NCBI GenBank assembly: GCA_902794945.1
Contig: CADBJA010000019.1
Span: 1 to 19,063 of the forward strand
Source of the DNA: Oscillospiraceae bacterium
GTDB taxonomy: Bacteria > Bacillota > Clostridia > Oscillospirales > Acutalibacteraceae
Length of the DNA stretch: 19,063 bases
Direction: 5' to 3'
Part shown: in pieces, positions 1-18,421 of the stretch
Layout: every line of letters starts with the position of its first letter
How positions within the stretch are numbered: the first letter of the stretch is position 1
Notes under the pieces: model-generated
Told to the model about the DNA's origin: nothing
Database searches by the model: none
What the model saw: only the letters and a program-made list of their open reading frames with translations
Translations under genes and position numbers: made by a program

Positions 1-95
1 CATATTTAAGCCAATCTTGGATTAAAACCAAACAAATACAATCAAGTGCGAATGTGTCGCCCTTAATTATTCACTATTCATCATTCATTATTCAT

Positions 96-127
96 TAAAA
101 AAAGAGGTCAACGACCTCTTTTTTTAA
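96..127. terminator. Bidirectional rho-independent terminator following ispF.
   Basis: A hairpin runs from agaggtc (103-109) to gacctct (113-119). It is flanked by A7 upstream and T8 downstream, and it overlaps the ispF stop at 124-126. The same hairpin-plus-flanks cassette recurs at 7280-7312. Confidence 0.6.
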
Positions 128-2353: not shown

Positions 2354-4015
2354 TTAAAAACTGAGATTTCTTAAAATCATACCGAGTCCGGATTTTACTT
2401 GCGTATTCTCACGAATGCCTTCCACATATTTTTTTCCCTTTTCGGCAGACACTTCATTGATAGCGGCATCTTTAATTAAGTCTTCACTCTTATGTTTTGC
2501 CTCAATAAGCATTGCCACTTCCGCAAATGTTTCATCATCACTTAAACCGCAAACGGTTTTCCCTTTTTTGGCTTTCGGATTGGTTAACAGTTCTGCAACC
2601 GGTCTGTTTTGAATGTTGGCAACAGCCATATCTTTTACCAAAGTAGAATCTTCATCCTTATACATAGCGGCACTATCTTTGGAAACATTCTCGGTAACAA
2701 GTTTATGGAACTGCTTTTCATCTTTCGCTTTGGCAATCTTTTCGACCGTTTTTAACGCTTTTTCTTTGGTAACGGAATCATTGACCTGCACATAGAAATA
2801 GCGGAAAGAAACGACTTCAAAGTTATCCGGATTTTCTTTATAAATCTTTTCTAACTGCTCTTTTGTGACATCTTTTAACATCACGCTCTTGTAATAAGAA
2901 TTGACATAAGCCGTTAATTCAAGGTATTCGGCAAAATCTTTTTCACTGATTTTCAAGCCATACATAGACTTCATATAATCTTCAAAAGACTGATTTGCCT
3001 GCTCGGCATAAGAATTTACATTTTTGATAGCATCCGTAACGGATTTTTCATCTTTCTCGGTCATTTCATAACCGGCTTTTTTACCCTCGTTGTAAATGCC
3101 GTAGTACAGTTTTAATGCATCTACGGTTTGGGATTTCAAGAAATCATCCCAAGTTTTATAATCTTCACTATTTTCATAGGTTTGTTTGGAAGGCTTTTCA
3201 TCAATATTAAAGCCGGAAGAAGTGTAATTTGCCGCATTCTCTATATAATAAACGGCTTTATATACATTCATCGGTACGGAGGTACCGTCCACCTTCACAA
3301 CGCTCTTATTGCCTGCAAAGAACAAAATGGCACACCAAATCGCAATCGCTAAAACCACACCCAAGCAGGCAAAGCCGACTTTTTTAAGCACCTTTTTCTT
3401 CTTTAAATGCTTTTGAATATCCTTTTCTTTATAAGCATCCAACACTTCGGTTTCAATGTGTATTTTTTCGCCGCACTGCGGGCAAACGATATTCTCATCA
3501 TCATCAATATCATCTGCCGAAAAATGCACAACCGCTTCACAAGCACCGCAATCGACAATGTAAGAGCCGCCTTTTTCATCTTCACTCCCATCATTTGATT
3601 TATCGACCAAATAATAATCGAGCGCCTCTTGATTAATTTCGATACTTTCATTACAATTCGGGCAAATGAGGTTACCCTCTTCATCTAAATCTTCTAACTC
3701 AAAATACACTTTTGTAGCGCAACTTTCACAATCAGCAGCATATTTTGCAAGCGTGATTTCTTTTTCAACTGCCTCTTCGTCGTTCACTTCATCACCCGGC
3801 GCATCGTTCACATCATTTAAAAAGGATTCTAATTCCTTTTCGCTTTCAACACCGTCAATCTCCGTATAAGTGTTTTCTTTCTTTTCGGATTCTGCTTCGG
3901 GTGTTGTTTCGGCAACAGTATCGGTTGCCTGCGTTTCATCGGATGCGGACACACTGTTTAAAGAAACTTCCGGTTCGAGTTCATTCTCGAGATTCTCTTT
4001 TTTATTTTCGTCCAT
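2354..4015 (-). CDS. Membrane protein with a cytoplasmic double zinc ribbon and an extracytoplasmic SurA_N-like chaperone domain and no parvulin domain.
   Basis: The N-terminal region is acidic. It carries two CxxC...CPxC zinc-ribbon motifs (CESCATKV...CPNCN and CGACEAVV...CPQCGEK). A TM helix follows (VGFACLGVVLAIAIWCAILFFAG), then an external domain similar to the neighbouring PrsA-like protein (VVKVDGTSVPMNVYKAVYYIENAANYT). An AAGGGG RBS sits 7 nt upstream. Confidence 0.6.
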   Translation of the reverse strand: MDENKKENLENELEPEVSLNSVSASDETQATDTVAETTPEAESEKKENTYTEIDGVESEKELESFLNDVNDAPGDEVNDEEAVEKEITLAKYAADCESCATKVYFELEDLDEEGNLICPNCNESIEINQEALDYYLVDKSNDGSEDEKGGSYIVDCGACEAVVHFSADDIDDDENIVCPQCGEKIHIETEVLDAYKEKDIQKHLKKKKVLKKVGFACLGVVLAIAIWCAILFFAGNKSVVKVDGTSVPMNVYKAVYYIENAANYTSSGFNIDEKPSKQTYENSEDYKTWDDFLKSQTVDALKLYYGIYNEGKKAGYEMTEKDEKSVTDAIKNVNSYAEQANQSFEDYMKSMYGLKISEKDFAEYLELTAYVNSYYKSVMLKDVTKEQLEKIYKENPDNFEVVSFRYFYVQVNDSVTKEKALKTVEKIAKAKDEKQFHKLVTENVSKDSAAMYKDEDSTLVKDMAVANIQNRPVAELLTNPKAKKGKTVCGLSDDETFAEVAMLIEAKHKSEDLIKDAAINEVSAEKGKKYVEGIRENTQVKSGLGMILRNLSF

Positions 4016-4095: not shown

Positions 4096-4191
4096 AAAAC
4101 AAAAATTAACAGTTCGGTAAAAACAAAAATTAACAGTTCGGTAAAAACAAAAATTAACAGTTCGGTAAAAACAAAAATTAACAGTTCGGTA
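4096..4191. repeat. Four perfect tandem copies of a 24-bp unit, aaaacaaaaattaacagttcggta.
   Basis: Copies occupy 4096-4119, 4120-4143, 4144-4167 and 4168-4191. Each contains ACAGTTCGG. Confidence 0.95.
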
Positions 4192-4282: not shown

Positions 4283-4589
4283 ACAAAATTTTTATGCAAT
4301 TTTAATTACAGACTTATTTTTTAAAAATACAACAAGATATGCACATTTCAATGTTTCCTAATGAAATCGGGCTGTGCCCGATGAAATCCAAAATGCATAA
4401 TTTGGATGAAATCAAATCCGCCATCCGCCTTGGCGGATAGAAGAACCCGACCAACTTGCCAAATCAAAGATTTGGAGTTGGTGCCCGGAACCTTGGCGTT
4501 CGCGGCACCTTGTGCCGCTCGGCTGCATCGCTTGCGATTTCATCCGAGCAAAGCGAGGATTTCATCCACCTGTATAGGTGGATGAAATT

Positions 4590-4620
4590 AAAAAAGCAGT
4601 TCCGAAGAACTGCTGTTTTT
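4590..4620. terminator. Bidirectional terminator.
   Basis: An 8-bp stem (agcagttc pairing with gaactgct) with a cgaa loop spans 4595-4614. A6 precedes it and T5 follows it. Confidence 0.55.
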
Positions 4621-4660
4621 GGTAGCGGGAGCAGGACTCGAACCTGCGAGCCCGGGTTAT
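4620..4660 (-). pseudogene. 3' fragment of tRNA-fMet, an att-like duplicate.
   Basis: The first 30 nt (tggtagcgggagcaggactcgaacctgcga) are identical to the 3' end of the intact tRNA at 4856-4931, including the encoded CCA. The match continues through gggttat, then diverges. No 5' half is found. Confidence 0.6.
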
Positions 4661-4825: not shown

Positions 4826-4855
4826 AGAAAAAGCACTTTTTTTAAAGTGCTTTTT
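4826..4855. terminator. Bidirectional terminator directly after tRNA-fMet.
   Basis: A stem (aagcacttt 4831-4839 pairing with aaagtgctt 4844-4852) has a tttt loop and T/A runs on both sides. Confidence 0.55.
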
Positions 4856-4931
<76 letters not shown>

Positions 4932-5825: not shown

Positions 5826-6506
5826 TTAACCGCCTAAAATACAAAATTTAAAAATTCCAACAAATTGCAGCACACTGCCCGCTAAAATAAATAAGTGAAA
5901 AATCATATGGAAAAACTGCTTTTTTCTTCCTAAAGCGAAAAAAATCATACCCAGAGAATACACGGCACCGCCGCCTATTATCCATATAATCATCTCAATA
6001 CCGTATGCCTTATAAAGCGGGTAAAGCATTAATAAAGCGGACCAGCCGACTATGAAATAACCGCTCATACAAAGTTTTTCATACTTTTTAAAGTCAATCG
6101 CCGTAAAGGGAACACAAATGGCAGTACCAATAATTACTAACGCCAAAACAATGTAAAAAATCACTTTGTTCTGTTCTCTCACGCCGGTGAATAAAATCGG
6201 AAAAAAAGAGCCTAAAATTAAGCCGAAAATTGAACAATGGTCGAGCACTTGCATAATCTTTTTGGGGCGTTCCGGTGTTAAACCGTGATACACACTTGAT
6301 ATCGTGTAAAGATAAATCATCATGATACCGTACACAATACCTCCGGTAATGCCCCAATAATTATGTCTAAGCCCTGCAAATACACTGCATAAGACCAAAA
6401 CAACCAAACCGAAAGCGGCACCGACAATGTGTGTAATCATATTGCCGATTTCTTCACGCCTTGTAAAACCCGGCAATTTCCTATCATCTATTTTTGTTCG
6501 CCGCAT
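5826..6506 (-). CDS. Hemolysin III / PAQR family integral membrane protein.
   Basis: It has seven predicted TM segments and the family motifs N..TH (EIGNMITHIVG), HGL, DHCSIF and HxxFH (HMIFHLF). A GAGGTG RBS is 6 nt upstream. Confidence 0.85.
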   Translation of the reverse strand: MRRTKIDDRKLPGFTRREEIGNMITHIVGAAFGLVVLVLCSVFAGLRHNYWGITGGIVYGIMMIYLYTISSVYHGLTPERPKKIMQVLDHCSIFGLILGSFFPILFTGVREQNKVIFYIVLALVIIGTAICVPFTAIDFKKYEKLCMSGYFIVGWSALLMLYPLYKAYGIEMIIWIIGGGAVYSLGMIFFALGRKKQFFHMIFHLFILAGSVLQFVGIFKFCILGG

Positions 6507-6599
6507 AGATTCACCTCTGTTGATTAATAAAAGTATTTTAAATGAAATGTGATAAAAAAATCAACACCTGTCCGTTATTTTATTGTAAATTAATTGTGA

Positions 6600-7310
6600 A
6601 CAAAATAATGATTTCGTTTTCTACTTCATTCTTTTTCAGGCGAATAATATCCCCCTCCTTATGCCTTGTGCATTAATAATCGGGTGCGGGTGTCCCGCCC
6701 TCAATTAGCACTGAAAGTGCGGCTTCATTAGGCGACTTGTCGCCGACTTCATTATTCATTAGCGAAGGCCTTACAACCGGGAGGGCACAGAGAGCCTCCC
6801 CTACAGGTTGCTGTGCTTTTTCTTTCGGGCGGATAGTATCCGCCCCTACTTGTGACTTATGCCTTGTGCCTTAAATTGACTACCCCTCTGTCACTTCGTG
6901 ACATCTCCCCTAAATTTGACAATCCCTCCACCGCTTACGCGGTCCCCCTCCTAACCGGAGCCCGTACCCTCTGTCACTTCGTGACATCTCCCTGCACTGC
7001 AGGGAGTCACCCTTTACACAAGGGAGGCAAATCGGGGCGATGTAAAGCGGTTAAGATGAAAACATCATATTTACATTCATCAAATATTAGAGCGAAGCGA
7101 AACGGGTGCGGGTGTTCCCGCCCTTCATATTGGCGAAGCCAATACTTCATATGCCGTTGGCATACTTCATAGCGAAGCTACTTCATTTGCGCACCGCGCA
7201 AACTTCATTCAGCGGTCTTTGACCGCTGCTGTCCCGCCCTCAATTATTCACTATTCACTCTTCATCCTTCATTAAAAATGGTAGAGGTCTTACGACCTCT
7301 ACCGATTTTT
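6600..7310. repeat. A 700-bp GC-rich noncoding hairpin array, the largest member of a repeat family dispersed through this window.
   Basis: Dozens of short palindromes are present. Five tandem units (7123-7225) have the form ACTTCAT plus a variable 9-20 nt palindrome. A 26-bp direct repeat (ccctctgtcacttcgtgacatctccc) occurs at 6884-6909 and 6967-6992. A 14-bp repeat (cttatgccttgtgc) occurs at 6658 and 6856. GGGTGCGGGTGT(T)CCCGCCC occurs at 6681 and 7105. A module ending in a terminator (7225-7312) is homologous to 44-127. Confidence 0.6.
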
Positions 7311-7312
7311 TT
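7280..7312 (-). terminator. Terminator of the TPM-domain gene.
   Basis: A 10-bp stem (ggtagaggtc 7280-7289 pairing with gacctctacc 7294-7303) has a ttac loop. A5 and T7 flank it, and it overlaps the stop codon at 7311-7313. Confidence 0.6.
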
Positions 7313-8108
7313 AAAATCCTCCGCCTCCGTGCGAAGCACCGGATGACGATGAGTGTGTGGAAGAACCGCCGCTTGATTTGCTTTGAATTGCGGTTCTCGT
7401 TACCGATGTGGTTCGGAAATTATCGTAAGCACCGGTCACATTGAGTGAACCGTTTACCAAATAATCGGTTGCATTTGCTTTAAACCGAACCGGTTGATAC
7501 TTCTTTTTTATGATGCTACGCGCAATAAAGCCCGCAATAATACCGACAACCAGCGCAATACCGATACCGAGAGCATAATTTCTCTTTTTAGGCGCACTGT
7601 TAACATCTAACGGTGTGCCGGCATCGGCTTGAGCAACCAATTCCGATGATACATCGGCAAATTTGAGAAATGCCTCTTCCCATGCGCCGCTATCCATCAA
7701 ATCTACAAGTTGTGAGCCGACATACTGAATACCGTAATCGGTAAAACATTTAATGCCGTAGCCCCTTGTTGAAATCCAACGCTCGGTTGTATCGCCGTTA
7801 TCATACACAAGCAGTAATACACCGCTTCTGTCACCCTGTCTGCCGACACCGTAACCGTTGTAATCATAATAATCATCGGCATAGTCCTGCTTGCTTTTGC
7901 CTTGTAAATCGGTTGTTGTAACAATCACAAAGTCCATATTGGTATCATCACTCAGTTTTTGCAGTTTGACTTCTACCGTTTGCACCTCTTCGGCAGTTAA
8001 GAGCCCTGCTTCATCAACCACAAGCGGTTTTTCGGCTGCAAAAGAAGGGATGATACAAAGTGATAAAACGAGTAATAAAACAACACTAAACGAAATTATT
8101 TTTTTCAT
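7311..8108 (-). CDS. TPM-domain (YgcG/UPF0603, YdjH-like) membrane protein.
   Basis: A signal peptide (MKKIISFSVVLLLVLSLCIIPSFA) is followed by the TPM core (LVVDEAGLLTAEEVQ...MDFVIVTT), one TM helix and a Gly/Ser-rich tail ending in GGGGF. The start is placed at the ATG at 8108, preceded by AAGGAGG with a 9-nt spacer. This trims 13 codons from the tracked ORF. Confidence 0.8.
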   Translation of the reverse strand: MKKIISFSVVLLLVLSLCIIPSFAAEKPLVVDEAGLLTAEEVQTVEVKLQKLSDDTNMDFVIVTTTDLQGKSKQDYADDYYDYNGYGVGRQGDRSGVLLLVYDNGDTTERWISTRGYGIKCFTDYGIQYVGSQLVDLMDSGAWEEAFLKFADVSSELVAQADAGTPLDVNSAPKKRNYALGIGIALVVGIIAGFIARSIIKKKYQPVRFKANATDYLVNGSLNVTGAYDNFRTTSVTRTAIQSKSSGGSSTHSSSSGASHGGGGF

Positions 8109-8122
8109 ATTCATCCACCTCC

Positions 8123-9229
8123 TTATATAATGCCTAAGAGCATACATACGGCAAATGCCAAGGCACCGGCACCGGCAGCAACGCCGGCAAATAAGGCTGC
8201 AAGTTTGCCTTTATCAATCGGCAAATTGCCCACAAATTTACCGGTTTGCCCGTTCATGGCAAAGGTATACTTTTCGCCTTTATAATCGGTGTTTAAAATC
8301 CATACCGGGTACAAAGCGTATTTCGATACACCGTTAATCAGTTGTACGGAACTGAAACGCGGTGTCACGGTGGCATAGCCGTGCACGGTATCGCGCAGGG
8401 TATCTTCCGCCGAATGTTTAATGCGTTCATTCGCTCTCGGGATACTCTCTTCCATACCGACATCATATTTATCGGCAAGGTAGCCTGCAAGATAGGCGGT
8501 TTGGAAATCCACAGCATCCGCAAAATTAAACGGTTCAATGGATTCCATCAATTCATCCGGCATTTTGGTAGAACCGTCCACCGGGATGTTAGCAAAACTC
8601 ATATTGCCCTGACGGTAAATATCGTAAAAACTCGTTTCGGTATATTCATACTTACTGTCACGCCAAGTTCTCACCTGTGTACCTTCATACTGTACGGAAG
8701 CATTGATATTGGAATCAAACAGCCAAAACGGCACATAAATACCCTTGATTTCTTCTAAGCGATTTTCGCTTTTAAAGGCTTTGGGGGCAAACTTTTTATT
8801 GCTCGTATATTCTTTTAATTTCTCTTTTGCCTGTTTTTTATCGAGTTTAAACGGAATGACAAAATTCGGCTTTAATACACCGGATAATCTGCCGCTTAAA
8901 ACCGTATTATTACCGCAATACGGGCAGGTAGTTGCCGCCGTGTTTTCATCCGCCGCAATCTCGCCGCCGCAGGATTTGCAGACAAACACATTCATACCGG
9001 TATCATCCCACTGTTCATTTTGGGAAGAACCGTTCCAATTAAATTCATCCTCCGTCGGCATTTCGGGAGGCACATCACCCTGTTGCGTGTTTAACACATC
9101 ATCCTTTTGTTGCAGTTCGCTCACATCAAATGTACTGTCGCAAAAAGGGCATTTCATTTTTTGTGTTGCACTGTCAAACTCTAAAGTGCCGCCGCACGCA
9201 GGGCATTTATAATCTAAATTAACAGCCAT
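8123..9229 (-). CDS. Double zinc-ribbon protein with a C-terminal TM anchor (YdjG-like).
   Basis: Two CPxCGG...CPxC ribbons are present (CPACGGTLEF...CPFCDS and CKSCGGEI...CPYCGN). A roughly 200-aa domain of unknown function follows, then a C-terminal hydrophobic helix (LAALFAGVAAGAGALAFAVCMLLGII). An AAAGGAGA RBS is present. The stop abuts the RBS of the TPM gene. Confidence 0.6.
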   Translation of the reverse strand: MAVNLDYKCPACGGTLEFDSATQKMKCPFCDSTFDVSELQQKDDVLNTQQGDVPPEMPTEDEFNWNGSSQNEQWDDTGMNVFVCKSCGGEIAADENTAATTCPYCGNNTVLSGRLSGVLKPNFVIPFKLDKKQAKEKLKEYTSNKKFAPKAFKSENRLEEIKGIYVPFWLFDSNINASVQYEGTQVRTWRDSKYEYTETSFYDIYRQGNMSFANIPVDGSTKMPDELMESIEPFNFADAVDFQTAYLAGYLADKYDVGMEESIPRANERIKHSAEDTLRDTVHGYATVTPRFSSVQLINGVSKYALYPVWILNTDYKGEKYTFAMNGQTGKFVGNLPIDKGKLAALFAGVAAGAGALAFAVCMLLGII

Positions 9230-9258: not shown

Positions 9259-10278
9259 TTATTGTTTGGGTGTGCCGCAATTTTGGCAGAAGTTTGTGGT
9301 ATTCATACTGCCGCAATTCGGACAAGTCCACTGTGCAGGTGCCTGCGGTTGCACCGGTTGTTGTGCATAGCCGCCTTGAGTCGGTTGTTGGTAACCACCC
9401 TGAACGGGTTGCTGCTGATAGCCACCCTGCAGGGGTTGCTGCTGTGCGTAGCCGCCTTGCATAGGTTGTTGCTGCTGATAGCCGCCCTGCATAGGTTGCT
9501 GCTGTGCGTAACCTCCTTGCATCGGCTGTTGCTGTGCATAACCGCCTTGCATCGGTTGTTGTTGCTGATAGCCACCTTGCATAGGTTGTTGATAGCCGTT
9601 ATTCATTTGGGTATAGCCGCCTTGCATCTGTCCGTTCATAGCGCCCATACCCATGGCAGCACCCATCGCACCGCCCATAGCGGCGCCGCCGCCAAAGGTT
9701 TGCACAATTTCATTTGCCATTTGTTCTAAGCGCCTGTACTCATCCGTATAGCGGGAATCGGGTCTGCCGAAAGAATCGGTCAAATCAAATTTGATTTCAC
9801 TGAAATACGGGCTGTTAACACCGATATAGACTTCAAATTCATAACTGCAATCGTACTGCGGCGGGCTATACGGACGCTCATTGCCTTGAGAATCGGTCAT
9901 AAAGCGTTCCGTTTTATCTTCATCAATCCTGTAATTGGCATTCGTTACCTGTGTAAAGTCGATTAAATCGGCATTTTCGGCACGGTAATCACTCTTTCTG
10001 CTCACGCAGAATTTGCGCTGATTATCATCAATATAAATTTTGGTGCCGTGACCGTAAACCCTTGTAGGATTAAAGAAGTTAATGTTTTGCTTATTCTGCT
10101 CTCTGTAAGCGAGTTGTTGTTGAATATCTGCCACGGTAGAGCGCTTTCTCTCACTGAATAAGGGAGAAAGTTTTTTGTTACAATCGGAACAAATCGTTCC
10201 GTCTTCTACTTTTCTTGCGCCGAGCAAACCTACTTTTTTGCCGCAAATGGCACATTCTTTTTTATCAAAAAGTCCCAT
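9259..10278 (-). CDS. DUF4428-like N-terminal zinc-ribbon protein with a Q/G/Y-rich decapeptide repeat region and a C-terminal zinc ribbon.
   Basis: From the ATG at 10278 (GGAGG upstream; an alternative start lies 3 nt earlier) the protein begins MGLFDKKECAICGKK...DGTICSDC. A Met/Gly/Ala-rich stretch follows. There are about ten PMQGGY(A/Q)QQQ repeats. The C-terminus reads WTCPNCG...FCQNCG. Confidence 0.65.
   Translation of the reverse strand: MGLFDKKECAICGKKVGLLGARKVEDGTICSDCNKKLSPLFSERKRSTVADIQQQLAYREQNKQNINFFNPTRVYGHGTKIYIDDNQRKFCVSRKSDYRAENADLIDFTQVTNANYRIDEDKTERFMTDSQGNERPYSPPQYDCSYEFEVYIGVNSPYFSEIKFDLTDSFGRPDSRYTDEYRRLEQMANEIVQTFGGGAAMGGAMGAAMGMGAMNGQMQGGYTQMNNGYQQPMQGGYQQQQPMQGGYAQQQPMQGGYAQQQPMQGGYQQQQPMQGGYAQQQPLQGGYQQQPVQGGYQQPTQGGYAQQPVQPQAPAQWTCPNCGSMNTTNFCQNCGTPKQ
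9320..9610. repeat. Imperfect tandem repeats of about 30 bp inside a CDS, encoding QGGYAQQQPM decapeptides.
   Basis: Units of the form cat(a/c)gg(t/c)tg(c/t)tgctg(t/c)gc(g/a)ta(g/a)cc(g/a)cc(t/c)tg recur about nine times. Confidence 0.8.
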
Positions 10279-10309
10279 CATTAACCTCCAAAAATAATAT
10301 AACACAAAG

Positions 10310-10332
10310 AAGGGTGCGGATAGGCACACCCT
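10310..10332 (-). terminator. Weak intra-operon hairpin, a possible attenuator.
   Basis: A perfect 7-bp stem (aagggtg pairing with caccctt) has an 8-nt loop. On the minus strand it is followed by a weak CUUUGUGUU tract between the SPFH and DUF4428 genes. Confidence 0.3.
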
Positions 10333-16099: not shown

Positions 16100-16440
16100 T
16101 GGCAACGCCGTAATATCATTGTGCGCAACACACATCGTTTGCCACAGGCAACATTGTTTTGTGTTCGCGGTTTTTGCTCACGCAAAAAAACAAAGTTGTG
16201 CCTTGCGGACACAAACGTAAAGACTCACTAATGAAATATTTGGCTCTGCCAAATATGAAATAACGGCAACTCCATTATGAAGTATTGTAGTTATTCACTA
16301 CAATATGAAGCAAAATAAATTCCTATATATGCGAAGCATACTTCATAGCGACTGCTATTTCATATTCCGCAGGAATATTTCACAAATTCCAAAGGAATTT
16401 ATTTCATTGAAAAAACCACTTCATACGAAGTGGTTTTTTC
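16100..16440. repeat. A hairpin array from the same family as 6600-7310.
   Basis: ATGAAAT / ACTTCAT / ATTTCAT motifs alternate with small palindromes: atatttggc...gccaaatat, atgcgaagcat, atattccgcaggaatat and aaattccaaaggaattt. The run atgcgaagcatacttcatagcga nearly repeats the sequence at 7150-7180. Confidence 0.5.
16411..16440. terminator. Bidirectional terminator abutting the tRNA-Cys fragment.
   Basis: The sequence is aaaaaacc ACTTC atacg AAGTGG tttttt, a hairpin with flanking A and T runs. Confidence 0.5.
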
Positions 16441-16497
16441 CGGAGGCAACACCCAACCGGGGAATCAGAGTTTTGCAGCCAAATTGACATCCCTTAC
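16441..16497 (-). pseudogene. Degenerate 3' copy of tRNA-Cys, an att-like scar.
   Basis: Its 3' end (ggaggcaacaccc) and the segment ggggaatcagagttttgcag are identical to the intact tRNA-Cys at 18347-18421. The T-loop is deleted and the 5' part has diverged. Confidence 0.6.
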
Positions 16498-16627: not shown

Positions 16628-17023
16628 TTAAATATTATCATTTAAATACCGGTCAATAGCATTAACAACAGTTGCTGCATTTTCAAACGCCTCTTGCGCA
16701 TCAATCAACTCAAACTTTGCTGCAATGTCATAATCACTTTGCCCTCGTGCATCGACCAATCGACCAAGCATCTTTGAAAGAGAAGCATCAAATCTTCCGT
16801 TTTTAATGTAATGCTGTCTAAAATAGGCAATTACACCGGAATGCTTTTTAGAATCGTAGCCATCTAACAATTCTAATGCCTTGAGGGAATGAAACGCTGC
16901 ATAATATGAACGATTAATTGCGCCATTATAATCCCCCACTTCAATATAAATGGGAATAAACTTCAAGATTTCTTTCGCATTCGATAATTCTAATTGAGAG
17001 AGTTCACTCACACTATTATGCAA
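16628..17023 (-). CDS. HEPN-domain protein, the putative toxin partner of the upstream nucleotidyltransferase.
   Basis: It has the R-x6-H motif (NRSYYAAFH) and is about 130 aa. It overlaps the 3' end of the NTase gene by 8 nt. Confidence 0.8.
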   Translation of the reverse strand: MHNSVSELSQLELSNAKEILKFIPIYIEVGDYNGAINRSYYAAFHSLKALELLDGYDSKKHSGVIAYFRQHYIKNGRFDASLSKMLGRLVDARGQSDYDIAAKFELIDAQEAFENAATVVNAIDRYLNDNI

Positions 17024-17354
17024 CTTTAATACCCTCTCTTTCTACATTCTGAAGAAAAGGCATTACATCTCTGAACTTGTCAAAGGTCTCGGTATCATAT
17101 GCCAATATCGAAACCGTGATATCGTTTTCCAAGGATAAATCACTACCTAAATCTACCAACAAATAGCGATAATCTCTTAATTCATCACGAGAGCAATGAA
17201 TCAAAACCATAATATCAATATCGGATTCATCATCATAATCACCGCGCGCATAGGAGCCGTATAACTTTACAGCACACAACTTTTCGCCAAAATTATCTTT
17301 GGCAAAGTCACAAATCTTATCTAATATTTGCTTTAAGGTGTTTTGATTGCACAT
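17016..17354 (-). CDS. Minimal nucleotidyltransferase (MNT, Pol-beta superfamily), the antitoxin-type partner of the HEPN protein.
   Basis: It carries the GS...DxD motif in LYGSYARGDYDDESDIDIMV. The start is set at the ATG at 17354, preceded by GGAGG with a 7-nt spacer. The tracked ORF is 20 codons longer. Confidence 0.8.
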   Translation of the reverse strand: MCNQNTLKQILDKICDFAKDNFGEKLCAVKLYGSYARGDYDDESDIDIMVLIHCSRDELRDYRYLLVDLGSDLSLENDITVSILAYDTETFDKFRDVMPFLQNVEREGIKVA

Positions 17355-17386
17355 GATAACGCCTCCTTTCTTAAACTCTAATATTA

Positions 17387-17414
17387 ATATATACTTTTTT
17401 AGTTGGAAAATCAA
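17387..17414 (-). promoter_or_regulatory. Promoter of the NTase-HEPN pair.
   Basis: On the minus strand it reads TTGATT (17409-17414), about 17 nt, then TATATA. A second copy of the same 35-bp block lies at 17830-17857. Confidence 0.45.
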
Positions 17415-17437
17415 ATAAATTTATTCTTTAAAGAGAT

Positions 17438-17800
17438 TCATACTACCCTCCTGTAAATCTCTGCGCCTTGATTAATATTTGCAAGAATCGGATCAGTTGT
17501 CGGCTTTCCTTCACAAAAGTAAAGAATATCATAATCTTGCGCAAAATCACTTTCAAAAGAGAACAGCTGCCTTTGAAAATCCTTAAACTCTTTAGAACGG
17601 AGGTATTCACTTCGACTCTTTTTTCCGAATACGGCAATATCAATATCAGAACGGTCTGTGCATCTTTCTTCTAAAGCAGAACCGAATAACACAATGCGGT
17701 GAATGTTTGCACATTTCTTTGCCTGCTCTGCAATATTTAAAATGTACTTTTTCTTAATGTCTGCCACATAGTTATTACTTACTTTTACTAATCTGCACAT
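17438..17800 (-). CDS. Second nucleotidyltransferase-domain protein with no adjacent HEPN gene.
   Basis: It carries the motif LFGSALEERCTDRSDIDIAV. The start is set at the ATG at 17800, preceded by GAGGT with a 7-nt spacer. The tracked ORF begins at a TTG. Confidence 0.75.
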   Translation of the reverse strand: MCRLVKVSNNYVADIKKKYILNIAEQAKKCANIHRIVLFGSALEERCTDRSDIDIAVFGKKSRSEYLRSKEFKDFQRQLFSFESDFAQDYDILYFCEGKPTTDPILANINQGAEIYRRVV

Positions 17801-17829
17801 AGGTACTACCTCATAATAATTCAATAGTA

Positions 17830-18346: not shown

Positions 18347-18421
18347 TGGAGGCAACACCCGGATTTGAACCGGGGAATCAGAGTTTTGCAGACTCGTGCC
18401 TTACCCCTTGGCTATGTTGCC
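18347..18421 (-). tRNA. tRNA-Cys, anticodon GCA.
   Basis: The reverse complement is GGCAACATAGCCAAGGGGTAAGGCACGAGTCTGCAAAACTCTGATTCCCCGGTTCAAATCCGGGTGTTGCCTCCA. The anticodon loop is CTGCAAA. The discriminator is U73 and CCA is encoded. Confidence 0.9.

What the first reader, a model, noticed from the sequence alone, without database searches (positions are those of the whole stretch)
6600..7310. Undescribed hairpin-array repeat family: variable small palindromes punctuated by ATGAAR-T / AYTTCAT, recurring in at least four intergenic sites
Positions 7123-7225 contain five consecutive units of ACTTCAT plus a palindrome. The constant 7-mer is followed each time by a different 9-20 nt perfect palindrome: attggcgaagccaat, atgccgttggcat, agcgaagct, ttgcgcaccgcgcaa and tcagcggtctttgaccgctg. 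The same grammar appears at 6720-6770, at 16230-16440 (where atgcgaagcatacttcatagcga nearly duplicates 7155-7180), and at 4355-4590 in the ATGAAATC form. A related terminator-bearing module (GTGCGggTGTCcCGCCC...TCAATTATTCACTATTCA...TTCATTAAAAA-hairpin-T run) ends two different genes, at 44-127 and 7225-7312. The 6600-7310 block is GC-rich against an AT-rich background and contains further internal direct repeats. The arrangement resembles the REP/BIME mosaic elements of proteobacteria (palindromic units with constant linkers). It has not been described for this sequence family. It could instead be a large structured RNA, for example of the ROOL or GOLLD type, which often sit next to tRNAs. A protein-binding sponge array is another possibility.
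Basis: seen in the sequence. Interest (0 to 1): 0.7.

Follow-up and report, generated by a model that had tools for sequence, protein, structure and literature searches.

The report
Gut-1 hairpin arrays in IVS-like repeats
The hairpin arrays are real and match a known orphan RNA motif of gut bacteria (Gut-1); here they form part of a patchwork of small non-coding repeats (about five 7-base repeats plus an invariant hairpin) that in other genomes flank a small gene known from "intervening sequences" in ribosomal RNA.

Summary
Window 7124-7229 carries five different perfect hairpins separated by ACTTCAT (AUGAAGU on the minus strand). The same grammar recurs at 6701-6770, 16231-16409 and 4361-4590 (4 pattern matches, 0 in 200 shuffles). 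It is not undescribed: it is the Gut-1 RNA motif (RF01706; 56 bits at 16335-16409, gathering score 50; 37 bits at 7139-7210). No ROOL, GOLLD or HEARO match.

The "terminator-bearing module" is a separate unit: usually five tandem heptads (consensus AAUGAAU) followed by an invariant hairpin, GGGCGGGACACCCGCACCCGA. I found about 70 copies in gut and rumen Clostridia MAGs and a few other phyla. Gut-1 arrays are the same heptads with a hairpin between each.

In relatives with 91% and 83% identical flanking proteins the invariant hairpin downstream of the same gene is intact. In the window the array splits it, so the array arrived by DNA rearrangement.

In several genomes heptads plus hairpin directly precede a PF05635 (23S rRNA intervening-sequence protein) gene; inverted heptad runs, in one case with the hairpin, flank it in three. 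This resembles published rRNA IVS elements.

Best reading: ORF-less modules of an IVS-like selfish repeat family, co-transcribed with host genes. The mechanism is inferred, not shown.

The parts
7279..7304 (.). Bidirectional intrinsic-terminator hairpin directly after the stop codon of the TPM-domain gene (7311-8147, minus strand).
   Evidence: Terminator scan. The same hairpin is conserved in orthologous loci L236 and L241.
7240..7274 (-). Five tandem heptads: AAUGAAG GAUGAAG AGUGAAU AGUGAAU AAUUGAG.
   Evidence: Sequence. Covariance-model hit 7220-7275. Repeat D10, 84% to 53-101.
7230..7239 (-). Orphaned 5' half (GGGCGGGACA) of the invariant hairpin, cut off by the array.
   Evidence: compared with the intact hairpin at the orthologous position in L241 and L236.
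7124..7229 (-). Five-hairpin array with AUGAAGU linkers (Gut-1 type). It sits between two partial copies of GGCGGGA(A)CA.
   Evidence: Rfam Gut-1 at 7139-7210: 37.2 bits, E 1.7e-5, below the gathering score of 50. Fold energy z = -7.0 on each strand.
7104..7123 (-). Invariant hairpin copy with a 1-nt insertion: GGGCGGGAACACCCGCACCC.
   Evidence: Covariance-model hit 7100-7128, 24.6 bits.
7034..7103 (-). Module that follows the hairpin (GUUUCGCUUCGCUCUAAU...GAUGAAUGUAAAUAUGAUG). It is shared with other MAGs.
   Evidence: blastn: 81% to L161 2787-2870; 7086-7131 is 91-95% to L211 and L142.
6880..6992 (-). GC-rich modules, including a 26-nt exact direct repeat (6884-6909 and 6967-6992) built around the hairpin GUCACGAAGUGAC.
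   Evidence: the repeat finder D20. 6880-6911 is 100% identical to L136 7223-7254.
6828..6875 (-). Second 'heptads plus GC hairpin' module: GGCACAA-type heptads followed by GGGGCGGAUACUAUCCGCCC.
   Evidence: The same module is in L241 1495-1555.
6701..6770 (-). Short array: UAAUGAAU/AAUGAAGU/UAAUGAAG/UAAUUGAG linkers with two hairpins (6731-6744 and 6708-6720).
   Evidence: Partly shared with L241 1617-1663.
6680..6700 (-). Intact invariant hairpin GGGCGGGACACCCGCACCCGA.
   Evidence: Exact match; 0 expected in shuffles. Covariance model 41.9 bits.
40..127 (-). Terminator of ispF (100-127), then five heptads and a degenerate copy of the hairpin (GGGCGACACAUUCGCAC; one pair changed G-C to A-U, one pair broken).
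   Evidence: Covariance model 48 bits at 40-98. Inverted repeat I9..
16335..16409 (-). Gut-1 RNA motif copy above the Rfam gathering score. It follows a terminator hairpin (16411-16440) and a tRNA-Cys remnant (16441-16490).
   Evidence: Rfam 56 bits against a gathering score of 50. Conserved in relatives with stems varying at 3/74 columns and loops at 7/23.
16231..16311 (+). Mirror-image array (AUGAAAU/AUGAAGU linkers on the plus strand). It is absent in two relatives at 91% protein identity.
   Evidence: (18 bits).
4361..4590 (.). Array with ATGAAAT linkers (4361-4412, plus strand). Downstream is a partly mirrored, less regular stretch (4537-4590) next to a pseudo-tRNA-Met/tRNA-Met region.

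Best explanation
The 6600-7310 block is a patchwork of ORF-less modules from one family of small structured intergenic repeats. The family is common in gut and rumen Clostridia.

Core module (shown). About five imperfect tandem heptads, consensus AAUGAAU on the window's minus strand, lie in a fixed register. They are immediately followed by an invariant hairpin, GGGCGGGACACCCGCACCCGA.

Hairpin array (shown). It uses the same heptads, with a different short perfect hairpin placed between successive heptads.

Evolution (shown). The modules are gained, lost and rearranged at the DNA level.

Link to a gene (shown in a handful of loci). In several genomes heptads plus hairpin directly precede a PF05635 four-helix-bundle gene ('23S rRNA intervening-sequence protein'). 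Inverted heptad runs, in one locus together with the hairpin, flank the gene in three loci.

Inference. The window's modules are miniature or solo derivatives of an IVS-like selfish cassette. They mostly sit on the sense strand just after a gene's 3' end or inside operons. So they are probably co-transcribed and act, or are tolerated, as RNA. The stems may be RNase III-type processing or stabilising structures, as shown in the literature for rRNA IVS. The roughly five heptads may be a docking platform for the family's protein.
For: Identity of the array.
- Rfam Gut-1 hits at 16335-16409 (56 bits, gathering 50) and 7139-7210 (37 bits, E 1.7e-5).
- The Gut-1 seed alignment shows the same layout: terminator, then array, then mirrored array, plus heptad runs.

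Core module.
- 70 copies of the 17-mer were found in low-GC loci.
- Upstream lag-7 autocorrelation is 0.57, against about 0.28 at other lags and downstream.
- The register is fixed, with consensus (AATGAAT)x4 AATTGW before the hairpin.
- Run length has its mode at 5 (29/70); only 4/70 are longer.

Array equals heptads plus hairpins.
- In L158 and in window 7104-7229 an array directly abuts the invariant hairpin.

DNA-level turnover.
- The hairpin is intact in L241 and L236 but split by the array in the window, with GGCGGGA(A)CA on both sides.
- The whole block is absent in L236.
- An element is present in L238 between two operon genes but absent in the window and in L236.
- The mirrored half of site C is absent in L372 and L373. 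The array is absent in the 71% relative L383.

Constraint.
- At site C the variable columns are stems 3/74, linkers and other unpaired positions 4/91, loops 7/23. Stem against loop gives p = 0.0014.

Orientation.
- 43 of 55 copies have an ORF of at least 100 aa ending within 250 nt upstream on the same strand. 20 of 55 have a divergent start.

PF05635 link.
- The gene starts 15-40 nt after the hairpin in L136, L202, L213 and L220.
- It is flanked by inverted heptads in L202 and L227, and by inverted heptads plus hairpin in L136.
- Hairpin arrays directly precede the gene in L147 and L385.
- Pfam scores are 67-102 bits against a cutoff of 33.8.
- ORF-less inverted-repeat versions fold into a long heptad stem plus three hairpins (z -4.4 to -6.2). 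The heptad type covaries between the two arms.

Literature (PMC4990558).
- The Coxiella IVS has inverted-repeat stems cut by RNase III and an S23p ORF preceded by tandem heptameric repeats of variable number.
- S23p of Xanthomonas is a homopentamer.
Against: - There is no PF05635 gene in the window, and the rest of this genome could not be examined.
- There are no expression data. A terminator often precedes the modules, so transcription may be rare.
- Array stems are almost perfect palindromes: 148 Watson-Crick pairs, 4 G-T and 3 A-C in 23 hairpins. Both strands fold equally well. So nothing singles out RNA over single-stranded DNA, or over a palindrome-making mutational process.
- The hairpins in the arrays are all different, unlike copy-and-paste mobile elements.
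- The 9-10 nt duplication around the array is imperfect. Recombination between modules explains it as well as a target-site duplication does.
- The PF05635 adjacency rests on 4-7 loci.
- Heptad sequences differ between copies even within one genome, which argues against a single sequence-specific reader.
Gene context was judged from crude ORFs.
Confidence: 0.45

Rival explanations
1. Gut-1 is a free-standing, trans-acting small RNA gene, as typed in Rfam ('Gene; sRNA'). Its hairpins display UGAAAU/GAA linkers to a partner RNA or protein, i.e. a sponge.
For: - Rfam classifies it this way, and Weinberg 2010 rated it a likely RNA that is not cis-regulatory.
- Stems and linkers are constrained relative to loops at an orthologous site.
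- The two informative stem changes give G-U on the window's minus strand.
Against: - No promoter lies in front of the arrays. They sit directly after terminators of protein or tRNA genes.
- The number and identity of hairpins change between close relatives. One array interrupts another module.
- Arrays occur in both orientations side by side.
- There is no G-U excess overall.
Confidence: 0.12
2. These are host-selected 3'-end or intercistronic RNA structures with no selfish-element origin. Their role would be backup termination, exonuclease blocks or processing sites. Heptads would arise by slippage next to hairpins.
For: - The layout [terminator]-[heptads]-[GC hairpin] recurs with unrelated sequences at the same orthologous site. 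Examples are L238 with AGUUUUC heptads, and L236 with (CUGAAAA)5 plus a hairpin on the strand shown, which reads as terminator then U-rich heptads for the convergent gene.
- There is an orientation bias.
- The heptad tract is C-poor and unstructured, with stops in all three frames in 44/70 copies against 31% of shuffles.
Against: - A 21-nt hairpin identical across phyla is hard to explain by local selection.
- Presence varies between close relatives.
- The modules are physically associated with PF05635 genes and occur in inverted-repeat cassettes.
Confidence: 0.15
3. REP/BIME-type elements mobilised by a RAYT (IS200-like) transposase.
For: - The elements are intergenic, palindromic, mosaic and often lie at gene 3' ends.
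- The invariant hairpin could play the part of a REP.
Against: - The array palindromes are not conserved in sequence.
- Units are not in alternating orientation.
- There is no GTAG-type 5' tetranucleotide.
- No transposase recurs in about 0.5 Mb of flanking DNA from about 65 loci.
- Whole genomes could not be searched.
Confidence: 0.07
4. A double-stranded DNA binding array. Tandem 7-bp sites would be bound cooperatively by a ribbon-helix-helix or similar protein, as with the omega-protein heptad operators and centromeres of inc18 plasmids (from my own knowledge). The palindromes would serve as spacers.
For: - The 7-bp period is strict and the register fixed, with about five units.
- Linker spacing in the arrays is about 16-28 bp.
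- The palindromes are perfect on both strands.
Against: - Heptad sequence varies widely between copies.
- Composition is strongly strand-asymmetric, and orientation is biased relative to genes.
- Hairpins of unrelated sequence but conserved pairing imply single-strand folding.
Confidence: 0.1
5. Part of a large structured RNA of the ROOL, GOLLD or HEARO kind.
For: The non-coding block is large (about 800 nt), GC-rich and hairpin-rich.
Against: - No Rfam hit to these families appeared, even at E<=10.
- The block is absent or differently assembled in close relatives.
Confidence: 0.01

Closest known systems
Gut-1 RNA motif (Rfam RF01706; Weinberg et al. 2010, PMC2864571)
   Same: - Three or more unrelated hairpins are separated by (G/A)UGAAAU-type linkers.
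- One copy scores above the gathering threshold.
- The seed members show the same context: gene or tRNA, then terminator, then array, then mirrored array.
   Different: - The main array has five hairpins, AUGAAGU linkers and very short stems, and scores below threshold (37 bits).
- The published description gives no function, no organism, and no link to heptad runs, the invariant hairpin or PF05635 genes.
23S rRNA intervening sequences (IVS) carrying an S23p/PF05635 ORF (Coxiella, Leptospira; PMC4990558)
   Same: - Related loci contain a small cassette with inverted-repeat arms, tandem heptamer repeats just upstream of a four-helix-bundle ORF, and variable repeat number.
- IVS is regarded as a selfish element. 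Its stem is an RNase III substrate.
   Different: - The elements here lie between protein or tRNA genes, not inside 23S rRNA.
- Most copies are ORF-less, and the window has no ORF copy.
- They carry an invariant GGGCGGGACACCCGC hairpin and optional hairpin arrays, neither reported for IVS.
- RNase III cleavage is not shown here.
BOX elements of Streptococcus pneumoniae, Correia/NEMIS and other MITE-like mosaic repeats (from my own knowledge)
   Same: - Short, non-coding and modular, with a variable number of internal units.
- Terminal complementarity forms long stem-loops.
- They are intergenic, co-transcribed, and variably present between strains.
   Different: - There is no sequence similarity.
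- The internal units (hairpins) are all different rather than repeated copies.
- No clear target-site duplication or transposase was found.
REP/BIME elements of proteobacteria (from my own knowledge)
   Same: - Palindromic units with short linkers.
- Found at 3' ends of transcription units.
- Mosaic combinations of units.
   Different: - The palindromes are not conserved.
- All units share one orientation.
- No RAYT was found.
- The host phylum differs.
Intergenic heptanucleotide repeats: TAACTGA repeats (PMC4679880) and cyanobacterial STRR (from my own knowledge)
   Same: - Tandem 7-nt repeats in intergenic DNA.
- Orientation is biased relative to genes.
- Distribution across phyla is patchy.
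- Function is unknown.
   Different: - Here the heptads are imperfect and nearly always five in number.
- They are anchored in a fixed register to an invariant hairpin.
- Hairpins can be interleaved between them.

Membership tests
Gut-1 RNA motif (RF01706) | Covariance-model score at or above the gathering score of 50 bits. | tested here: met
   16335-16409 (minus strand) scores 56 bits. The main array 7139-7210 reaches only 37.2 bits (E 1.7e-5). 16213-16288 (plus strand) reaches 18 bits.
Gut-1 RNA motif (RF01706) | Three consecutive hairpins of variable sequence joined by a conserved UGAAAU-type linker. | tested here: met
   23 hairpins in arrays give 148 Watson-Crick, 4 G-T and 3 A-C pairs.
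Gut-1 RNA motif (RF01706) | Expressed as a non-coding RNA. | not testable with these tools
   No transcript data are available. Both strands fold equally well.
IVS-like S23p/PF05635 cassette | Carries, or derives from an element that carries, a PF05635 ORF between inverted-repeat arms. | tested here: inconclusive
   - Met in related loci: L136 (inverted heptads plus hairpin) and L202 and L227 (inverted heptads).
- No PF05635 ORF is in the window.
- Derivation of the solo modules from such a cassette is inferred from shared heptads plus hairpin.
IVS-like S23p/PF05635 cassette | Tandem heptamer repeats immediately upstream of the ORF, or at the arm. | tested here: met
   Lag-7 periodicity with a mode of five heptads before the hairpin. 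The published Coxiella IVS has GACAGAT x2-3 before S23p.
IVS-like S23p/PF05635 cassette | Excised or cut by RNase III in the stem; located in 23S rRNA. | tested here: not met
   The location is intergenic, between protein and tRNA genes, not in rRNA. Cleavage is not testable here.
REP/BIME | A conserved imperfect palindrome repeated throughout the genome, in alternating orientation with defined linkers. | tested here: not met
   The array palindromes are all different and share one orientation. Only the separate 21-nt hairpin is conserved.
REP/BIME | A cognate RAYT (Y1 transposase) flanked by REPs. | tested here: inconclusive
   No recurrent transposase was found among ORFs of about 65 loci. 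Whole genomes were not available.
MITE | Terminal inverted repeats and a target-site duplication. | tested here: inconclusive
   Inverted heptad arms occur in about 10 of 55 copies. An imperfect 9-10 nt duplication flanks the window array. No consistent duplication was seen elsewhere.
MITE | Presence/absence polymorphism at orthologous sites. | tested here: met
ROOL / GOLLD / HEARO | A match to the Rfam covariance model. | tested here: not met
   No hit at gathering threshold on the whole window, and none at E<=10 on 6500-7400.

The most novel reading that the evidence does not exclude
The about five heptads plus the invariant hairpin are the docking site for the pentameric PF05635 four-helix-bundle (S23p/Avd-like) protein, one heptad per subunit. 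Gut-1 arrays present the same five heptads on hairpin 'spokes'. Together they would define a previously unrecognised, horizontally spreading, non-rRNA branch of the IVS selfish elements. This would give the first function for the orphan Gut-1 motif and for the S23p protein family.
Probability: 0.2. Interest if true: 0.8.

Novelty: new member of a known kind. Interest (0 to 1): 0.5.

Why it matters
Gut-1 has been an orphan motif since 2010. It was known only from gut metagenomes, with no organism, context or function. The S23p/PF05635 proteins and the rRNA intervening sequences are likewise unexplained.

This locus and its relatives place Gut-1 arrays in named lineages: Oscillospiraceae/Ruminococcaceae-like and other Clostridia, and Phascolarctobacterium. 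They show that the arrays are a variant of a five-heptad-plus-hairpin module. They also tie that module physically to PF05635 genes.

Three separate puzzles thus become one testable system:
- protein binding to heptad RNA or DNA,
- RNase III processing,
- gain and loss of modules in populations.

Practically, these repeats break metagenome assemblies. Their stop-free opposite strand can also be miscalled as ORFs.

Tried and rejected
- ROOL, GOLLD and HEARO: no Rfam hits.
- Rfam E-value search on a canonical heptad-hairpin element in L167: only spurious weak hits, so the module is not an Rfam family.
- Three-linker pattern in viral contigs: 216 matches, of which only 2 have hairpins. Arrays are not a phage feature, and the pattern is too unspecific for large collections.
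- Metagenome scan with 'two linkers plus GGGCGGGA': 120 chance hits and only one full hairpin, in a high-GC contig. The scan was wasted.
- The 21-mer hairpin occurs in 1 viral contig. A 63-nt heptads-plus-hairpin query found no plasmid match. So the module is chromosomal rather than phage- or plasmid-borne.
- High-GC genome hits to the 18-nt variant lack heptads and were treated as chance.
- Literature searches for 'Gut-1 RNA', the hairpin sequence and the heptad sequence found nothing beyond Weinberg 2010.
- G-U against A-C asymmetry, to pick the folded strand: no asymmetry.
- Promoter idea (-10-like TATAAT after the hairpin): the spacing to any -35-like hexamer is wrong in most copies, so I dropped it as a general explanation.
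- Three-frame stop-codon idea: the enrichment is real, but a stop block is not needed after a gene's own stop. It probably follows from the A/G/U-rich composition.
- ORF 6852-7172 (plus strand, 106 aa) inside the block: no Pfam hit, judged spurious.
- The exact product of the TPM gene as read from its first ATG is not on record. A shorter start is likely, since homologs are 265-266 aa.
Full report
**Setting**

The window is a whole 19,063-bp contig. An identical protein is on record with that contig length. It comes from an uncultured rumen or gut member of the Clostridia. The closest protein homologs are named 'Ruminococcaceae bacterium', 'Oscillospiraceae bacterium' or 'Clostridia bacterium' MAGs.

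The block 6507-7310 is intergenic. It lies between two minus-strand genes: a TPM-domain gene (7311-8147) and a HlyIII-family gene (5826-6506). The only long ORF inside it (6852-7172, plus strand) has no Pfam match and is made of repeat modules.

**Observation**

- Window 7124-7229 holds five different perfect palindromes separated by ACTTCAT.
- The three-linker pattern occurs four times in the window and never in 200 shuffles.
- The terminator-bearing module is repeated at 53-101 and 7230-7278 (84% identity).
- A 26-nt exact direct repeat lies at 6884-6909 and 6967-6992.
- The block is 47-53% GC, against 32-40% on one side and 43-47% on the other.

**What the array is**

Read on the minus strand, the grammar is hairpin-AUGAAGU-hairpin. 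Rfam finds the Gut-1 RNA motif (RF01706):

- 16335-16409 (minus strand): 56 bits, above the gathering score of 50.
- 7139-7210 (minus strand): 37 bits, E 1.7e-5.
- 16213-16288 (plus strand): a weak mirrored hit.

Gut-1 was described in 2010 from human-gut metagenomes only. No function or organism was given. Its seed alignment already shows the layout seen here. A gene or tRNA is followed by a terminator, then the array, and often a second array with the linker reverse-complemented. Hairpin-less heptad runs lie nearby. Linkers differ between contigs (GUGAAAU or GUGAUAU). There is no ROOL, GOLLD or HEARO match, even at E<=10. So 'undescribed' is wrong for the array, while 'function unknown' remains true.

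**What the terminator-bearing module is**

On the minus strand it reads: terminator, then AAUGAAG GAUGAAG AGUGAAU AGUGAAU AAUUGAG, then GGGCGGGAC...

I scanned one genome per species for GGGCGGGA(N)CACCCGCAC.

- About 65 low-GC loci carry the exact 17-mer. They come from gut and rumen Clostridia (Acutalibacteraceae, Oscillospiraceae, Ruminococcus, Christensenella, Eubacterium MAGs), plus Phascolarctobacterium, an Anaeroplasmataceae, a Chryseobacterium isolate and Bacteroidaceae MAGs.
- In nearly all of them tandem heptads precede the 17-mer.
- Over 70 copies, lag-7 identity upstream is 0.57 (lag 14: 0.52). Other lags and the downstream side give about 0.28.
- The register relative to the hairpin is fixed. 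The consensus is (AATGAAT)x4 AATTGW GGGCGGGACACCCGCACCCGATT.
- The tract is only 10% C.
- Run length has a sharp mode at five heptads (29/70; only 4/70 longer).
- Minority copies use other heptads (TTAGCCG, GTTGACA, GAATTCG, AGAAGAG, GTGACCA and others), sometimes within one MAG.
- A covariance model of the module finds four copies or part-copies in the window: 40-98, 6678-6707, 7220-7275 and 7100-7128.
- The module matches no Rfam family. Its sequence is not in the searchable literature.

**Arrays and heptads are one thing**

In L158 four AUGAAAU-hairpin units directly abut the invariant hairpin, in place of the plain heptads. The window's main array does the same.

Arrays with other linkers also exist. 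UGAUAU-type arrays occur in L123, L147, L188, L194 and L216. A GAUUACAUA-type array occurs in L385. So Gut-1 covers only one linker class of a broader design: heptads with a hairpin between each.

**Orthologous-site tests**

Downstream of the TPM gene, the 91% relative (L241) and the 83% relative (L236) have the same terminator, five heptads and an intact hairpin, AATTGAGGGCGGGACACCCGCACCCG.

In the window that hairpin is split: ...GGGCGGGACA | array | GGCGGGAACACCCGCACCC. The first array hairpin (AGCAGCGGUCAAAGACCGCUGA-AUGAAGU) closely resembles one that lies further downstream in L241. So the array reached this position by insertion or recombination between modules.

Further differences between relatives:

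- L236 lacks the whole 800-nt block and the HlyIII gene.
- The 69% relative (L238) has a terminator plus AGUUUUC-type heptads plus a different hairpin at the same place.
- L238 has an extra module between two operon genes. The window and L236 have only a 29-nt spacer there.

At site C, several same-species and 91% relatives show intact tRNA-Cys, then the terminator, then the Gut-1 array. The window keeps only a tRNA-Cys remnant at 16441-16490. The mirrored half is missing in two relatives. The 71% relative has no array.

Across these relatives the variable columns are:

| Class | Variable columns |
|---|---|
| Stems | 3/74 |
| Linkers and other unpaired positions | 4/91 |
| Loops | 7/23 |

Stem against loop gives Fisher p = 0.0014. 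Two of the three stem changes give G-U on the minus strand. So pairing and linkers are conserved where the array persists, while arrays as units come and go.

**Strand and context**

- Of 55 hairpin copies with enough flank, 43 have an ORF of at least 100 aa ending within 250 nt upstream on the same strand. 20 have a divergent start (crude ORFs).
- A canonical terminator directly precedes the heptads in some copies. In several loci the hairpin lies 15-40 nt before the next start codon.
- Array stems are near-perfect palindromes (148 Watson-Crick, 4 G-T, 3 A-C).
- Both strands fold about equally well (z about -7 to -8).
- So the data do not by themselves separate RNA from single-stranded DNA.

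**Link to PF05635**

An all-against-all comparison of ORFs around the copies found no transposase. It did find one recurrent small family, confirmed as PF05635 '23S rRNA intervening-sequence protein' (67-102 bits, cutoff 33.8).

- The gene starts 15-40 nt after the invariant hairpin in L136, L202, L213 and L220.
- In L202 the order is heptads, hairpin, gene, GAGCGAAGCGAG, reverse-complement heptads. This is the ORF-less inverted-repeat architecture of L165, L207 and L215 with the gene inside.
- In L136 heptads plus hairpin flank the gene as inverted terminal repeats. A truncated second copy follows.
- In L227 inverted heptads flank the gene.
- In L147 and L385 hairpin arrays directly precede it. 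L385 is the 76% relative of the window's site C locus.
- Seven of the hairpin-selected loci carry a PF05635 homolog. By comparison there is one in 0.66 Mb of chance metagenome loci and none in 1.1 Mb of viral loci.
- The window itself has none.
- ORF-less inverted-repeat copies fold into a long heptad stem closing three hairpins (z -4.4 to -6.2).

**What is known about IVS**

The Coxiella 23S rRNA IVS is described as a selfish element.

- Its ends lie in a stem formed by inverted repeats that RNase III cuts.
- It carries an S23p ORF preceded by two to three tandem GACAGAT heptamers plus a degenerate one.
- The heptamer number varies between strains.
- The RNase III 5' site lies at the first repeat.
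- S23p of Xanthomonas is a homopentamer.
- Mobility has been proposed but never shown (PMC4990558).

Intergenic heptamer repeats of unknown function are also known from Beggiatoaceae, cyanobacteria and Bacteroidetes (PMC4679880).

**Interpretation**

Shown:

- The arrays are Gut-1.
- Gut-1 arrays, plain heptad runs and the invariant hairpin are parts of one modular repeat family.
- Modules turn over at the DNA level.
- Where an array persists, stems and linkers are constrained.
- In a handful of other genomes the same ends adjoin or enclose PF05635 genes.

Inferred:

- The window's modules are miniature or solo derivatives of an IVS-like cassette.
- They are co-transcribed with the upstream gene.
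- Their stems are handled by RNase III, like IVS stems.
- The about five heptads may be read by the pentameric protein.

My confidence in the identity statements is about 0.8. For the IVS-like relationship it is about 0.55. For the RNA-level mechanism it is about 0.3.

The main rivals are host-selected 3'-end structures, a free-standing sRNA or sponge, a dsDNA heptad-binding array, and RAYT-driven REP-like elements.

**Verdict**

The feature is real and non-random. Its core is already catalogued as Gut-1, so it is a new member of a known kind. The context uncovered here appears unreported in the literature I could search, and it makes an old orphan motif experimentally approachable.

Noticed in passing
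window 4096-4191: Four exact tandem copies of a 24-nt unit (AAAACAAAAATTAACAGTTCGGTA), upstream of the start of gene 2354-4015 (minus strand). A degenerate copy lies on each side.
   Followed up: no
window 4441-4660 and 4856-4931: A duplicated 3' part of tRNA-Met (4616-4656, 93% to 4852-4892) lies 236 nt from the intact tRNA-Met. The adjacent 80-nt module 4441-4522 is 90-92% identical to L166 1-82 and L135 7012-7072. This may be an integration scar or another repeat module.
   Followed up: partly
window 16441-16490: Remnant of a tRNA-Cys gene: the 3' half, with a 7-nt deletion in the T loop. The 3' part of the gene lacks this deletion at the same position in relatives L369, L370, L372 and L373 (same-species to 91% protein identity). 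An intact tRNA-Cys lies at 18347-18421.
   Followed up: partly
L367, L368, L371, L374, L375, L380-L382 (contig ends next to the STAS/APH gene): Many metagenome contigs of this species and its relatives end 15-130 nt upstream of the STAS/APH gene, at the hairpin-array region. The repeats seem to break assemblies.
   Followed up: no
window 5826-7310 compared with L236 6133-6339: The HlyIII-family gene and the 800-nt repeat block are both absent in the 83% relative. There the TPM gene and the convergent HAD gene are only 205 nt apart.
   Followed up: partly
L158 3330-3800: Three tandem repeats of about 209 nt. Each ends in GAATTCG-type heptads plus the invariant hairpin. A Gut-1-type array copy lies just upstream.
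   Followed up: no
L136 2895-3705: A complete cassette: heptads plus hairpin, a PF05635 gene on the opposite strand, then inverted hairpin plus heptads. A truncated second gene copy with its own hairpin plus heptads follows.
   Followed up: yes
L134 6160-6400 and L215 (flanks of the inverted-repeat elements): The elements are bracketed by two hairpins with the same stem but different tops (L134), or sit inside a split terminator-like hairpin (L215). This hints at insertion into terminator hairpins.
   Followed up: no
window 9359-9636: 30-nt coding repeats (QQPMQGGY units) in the C-terminal part of the DUF4428 protein 9259-10329.
   Followed up: no
window 16628-17824: A HEPN-domain gene next to two nucleotidyltransferase (MNT-like) genes, a toxin-antitoxin-like cluster, lies immediately upstream of site C.
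   Followed up: no
about 70 invariant-hairpin copies (L121-L235 low-GC loci and window): The 35 nt before the hairpin carry stop codons in all three frames on the hairpin strand in 44/70 copies (31% in shuffles). On the opposite strand 34/70 copies have no stop codon in any frame, so spurious ORFs can run across the elements.
   Followed up: partly
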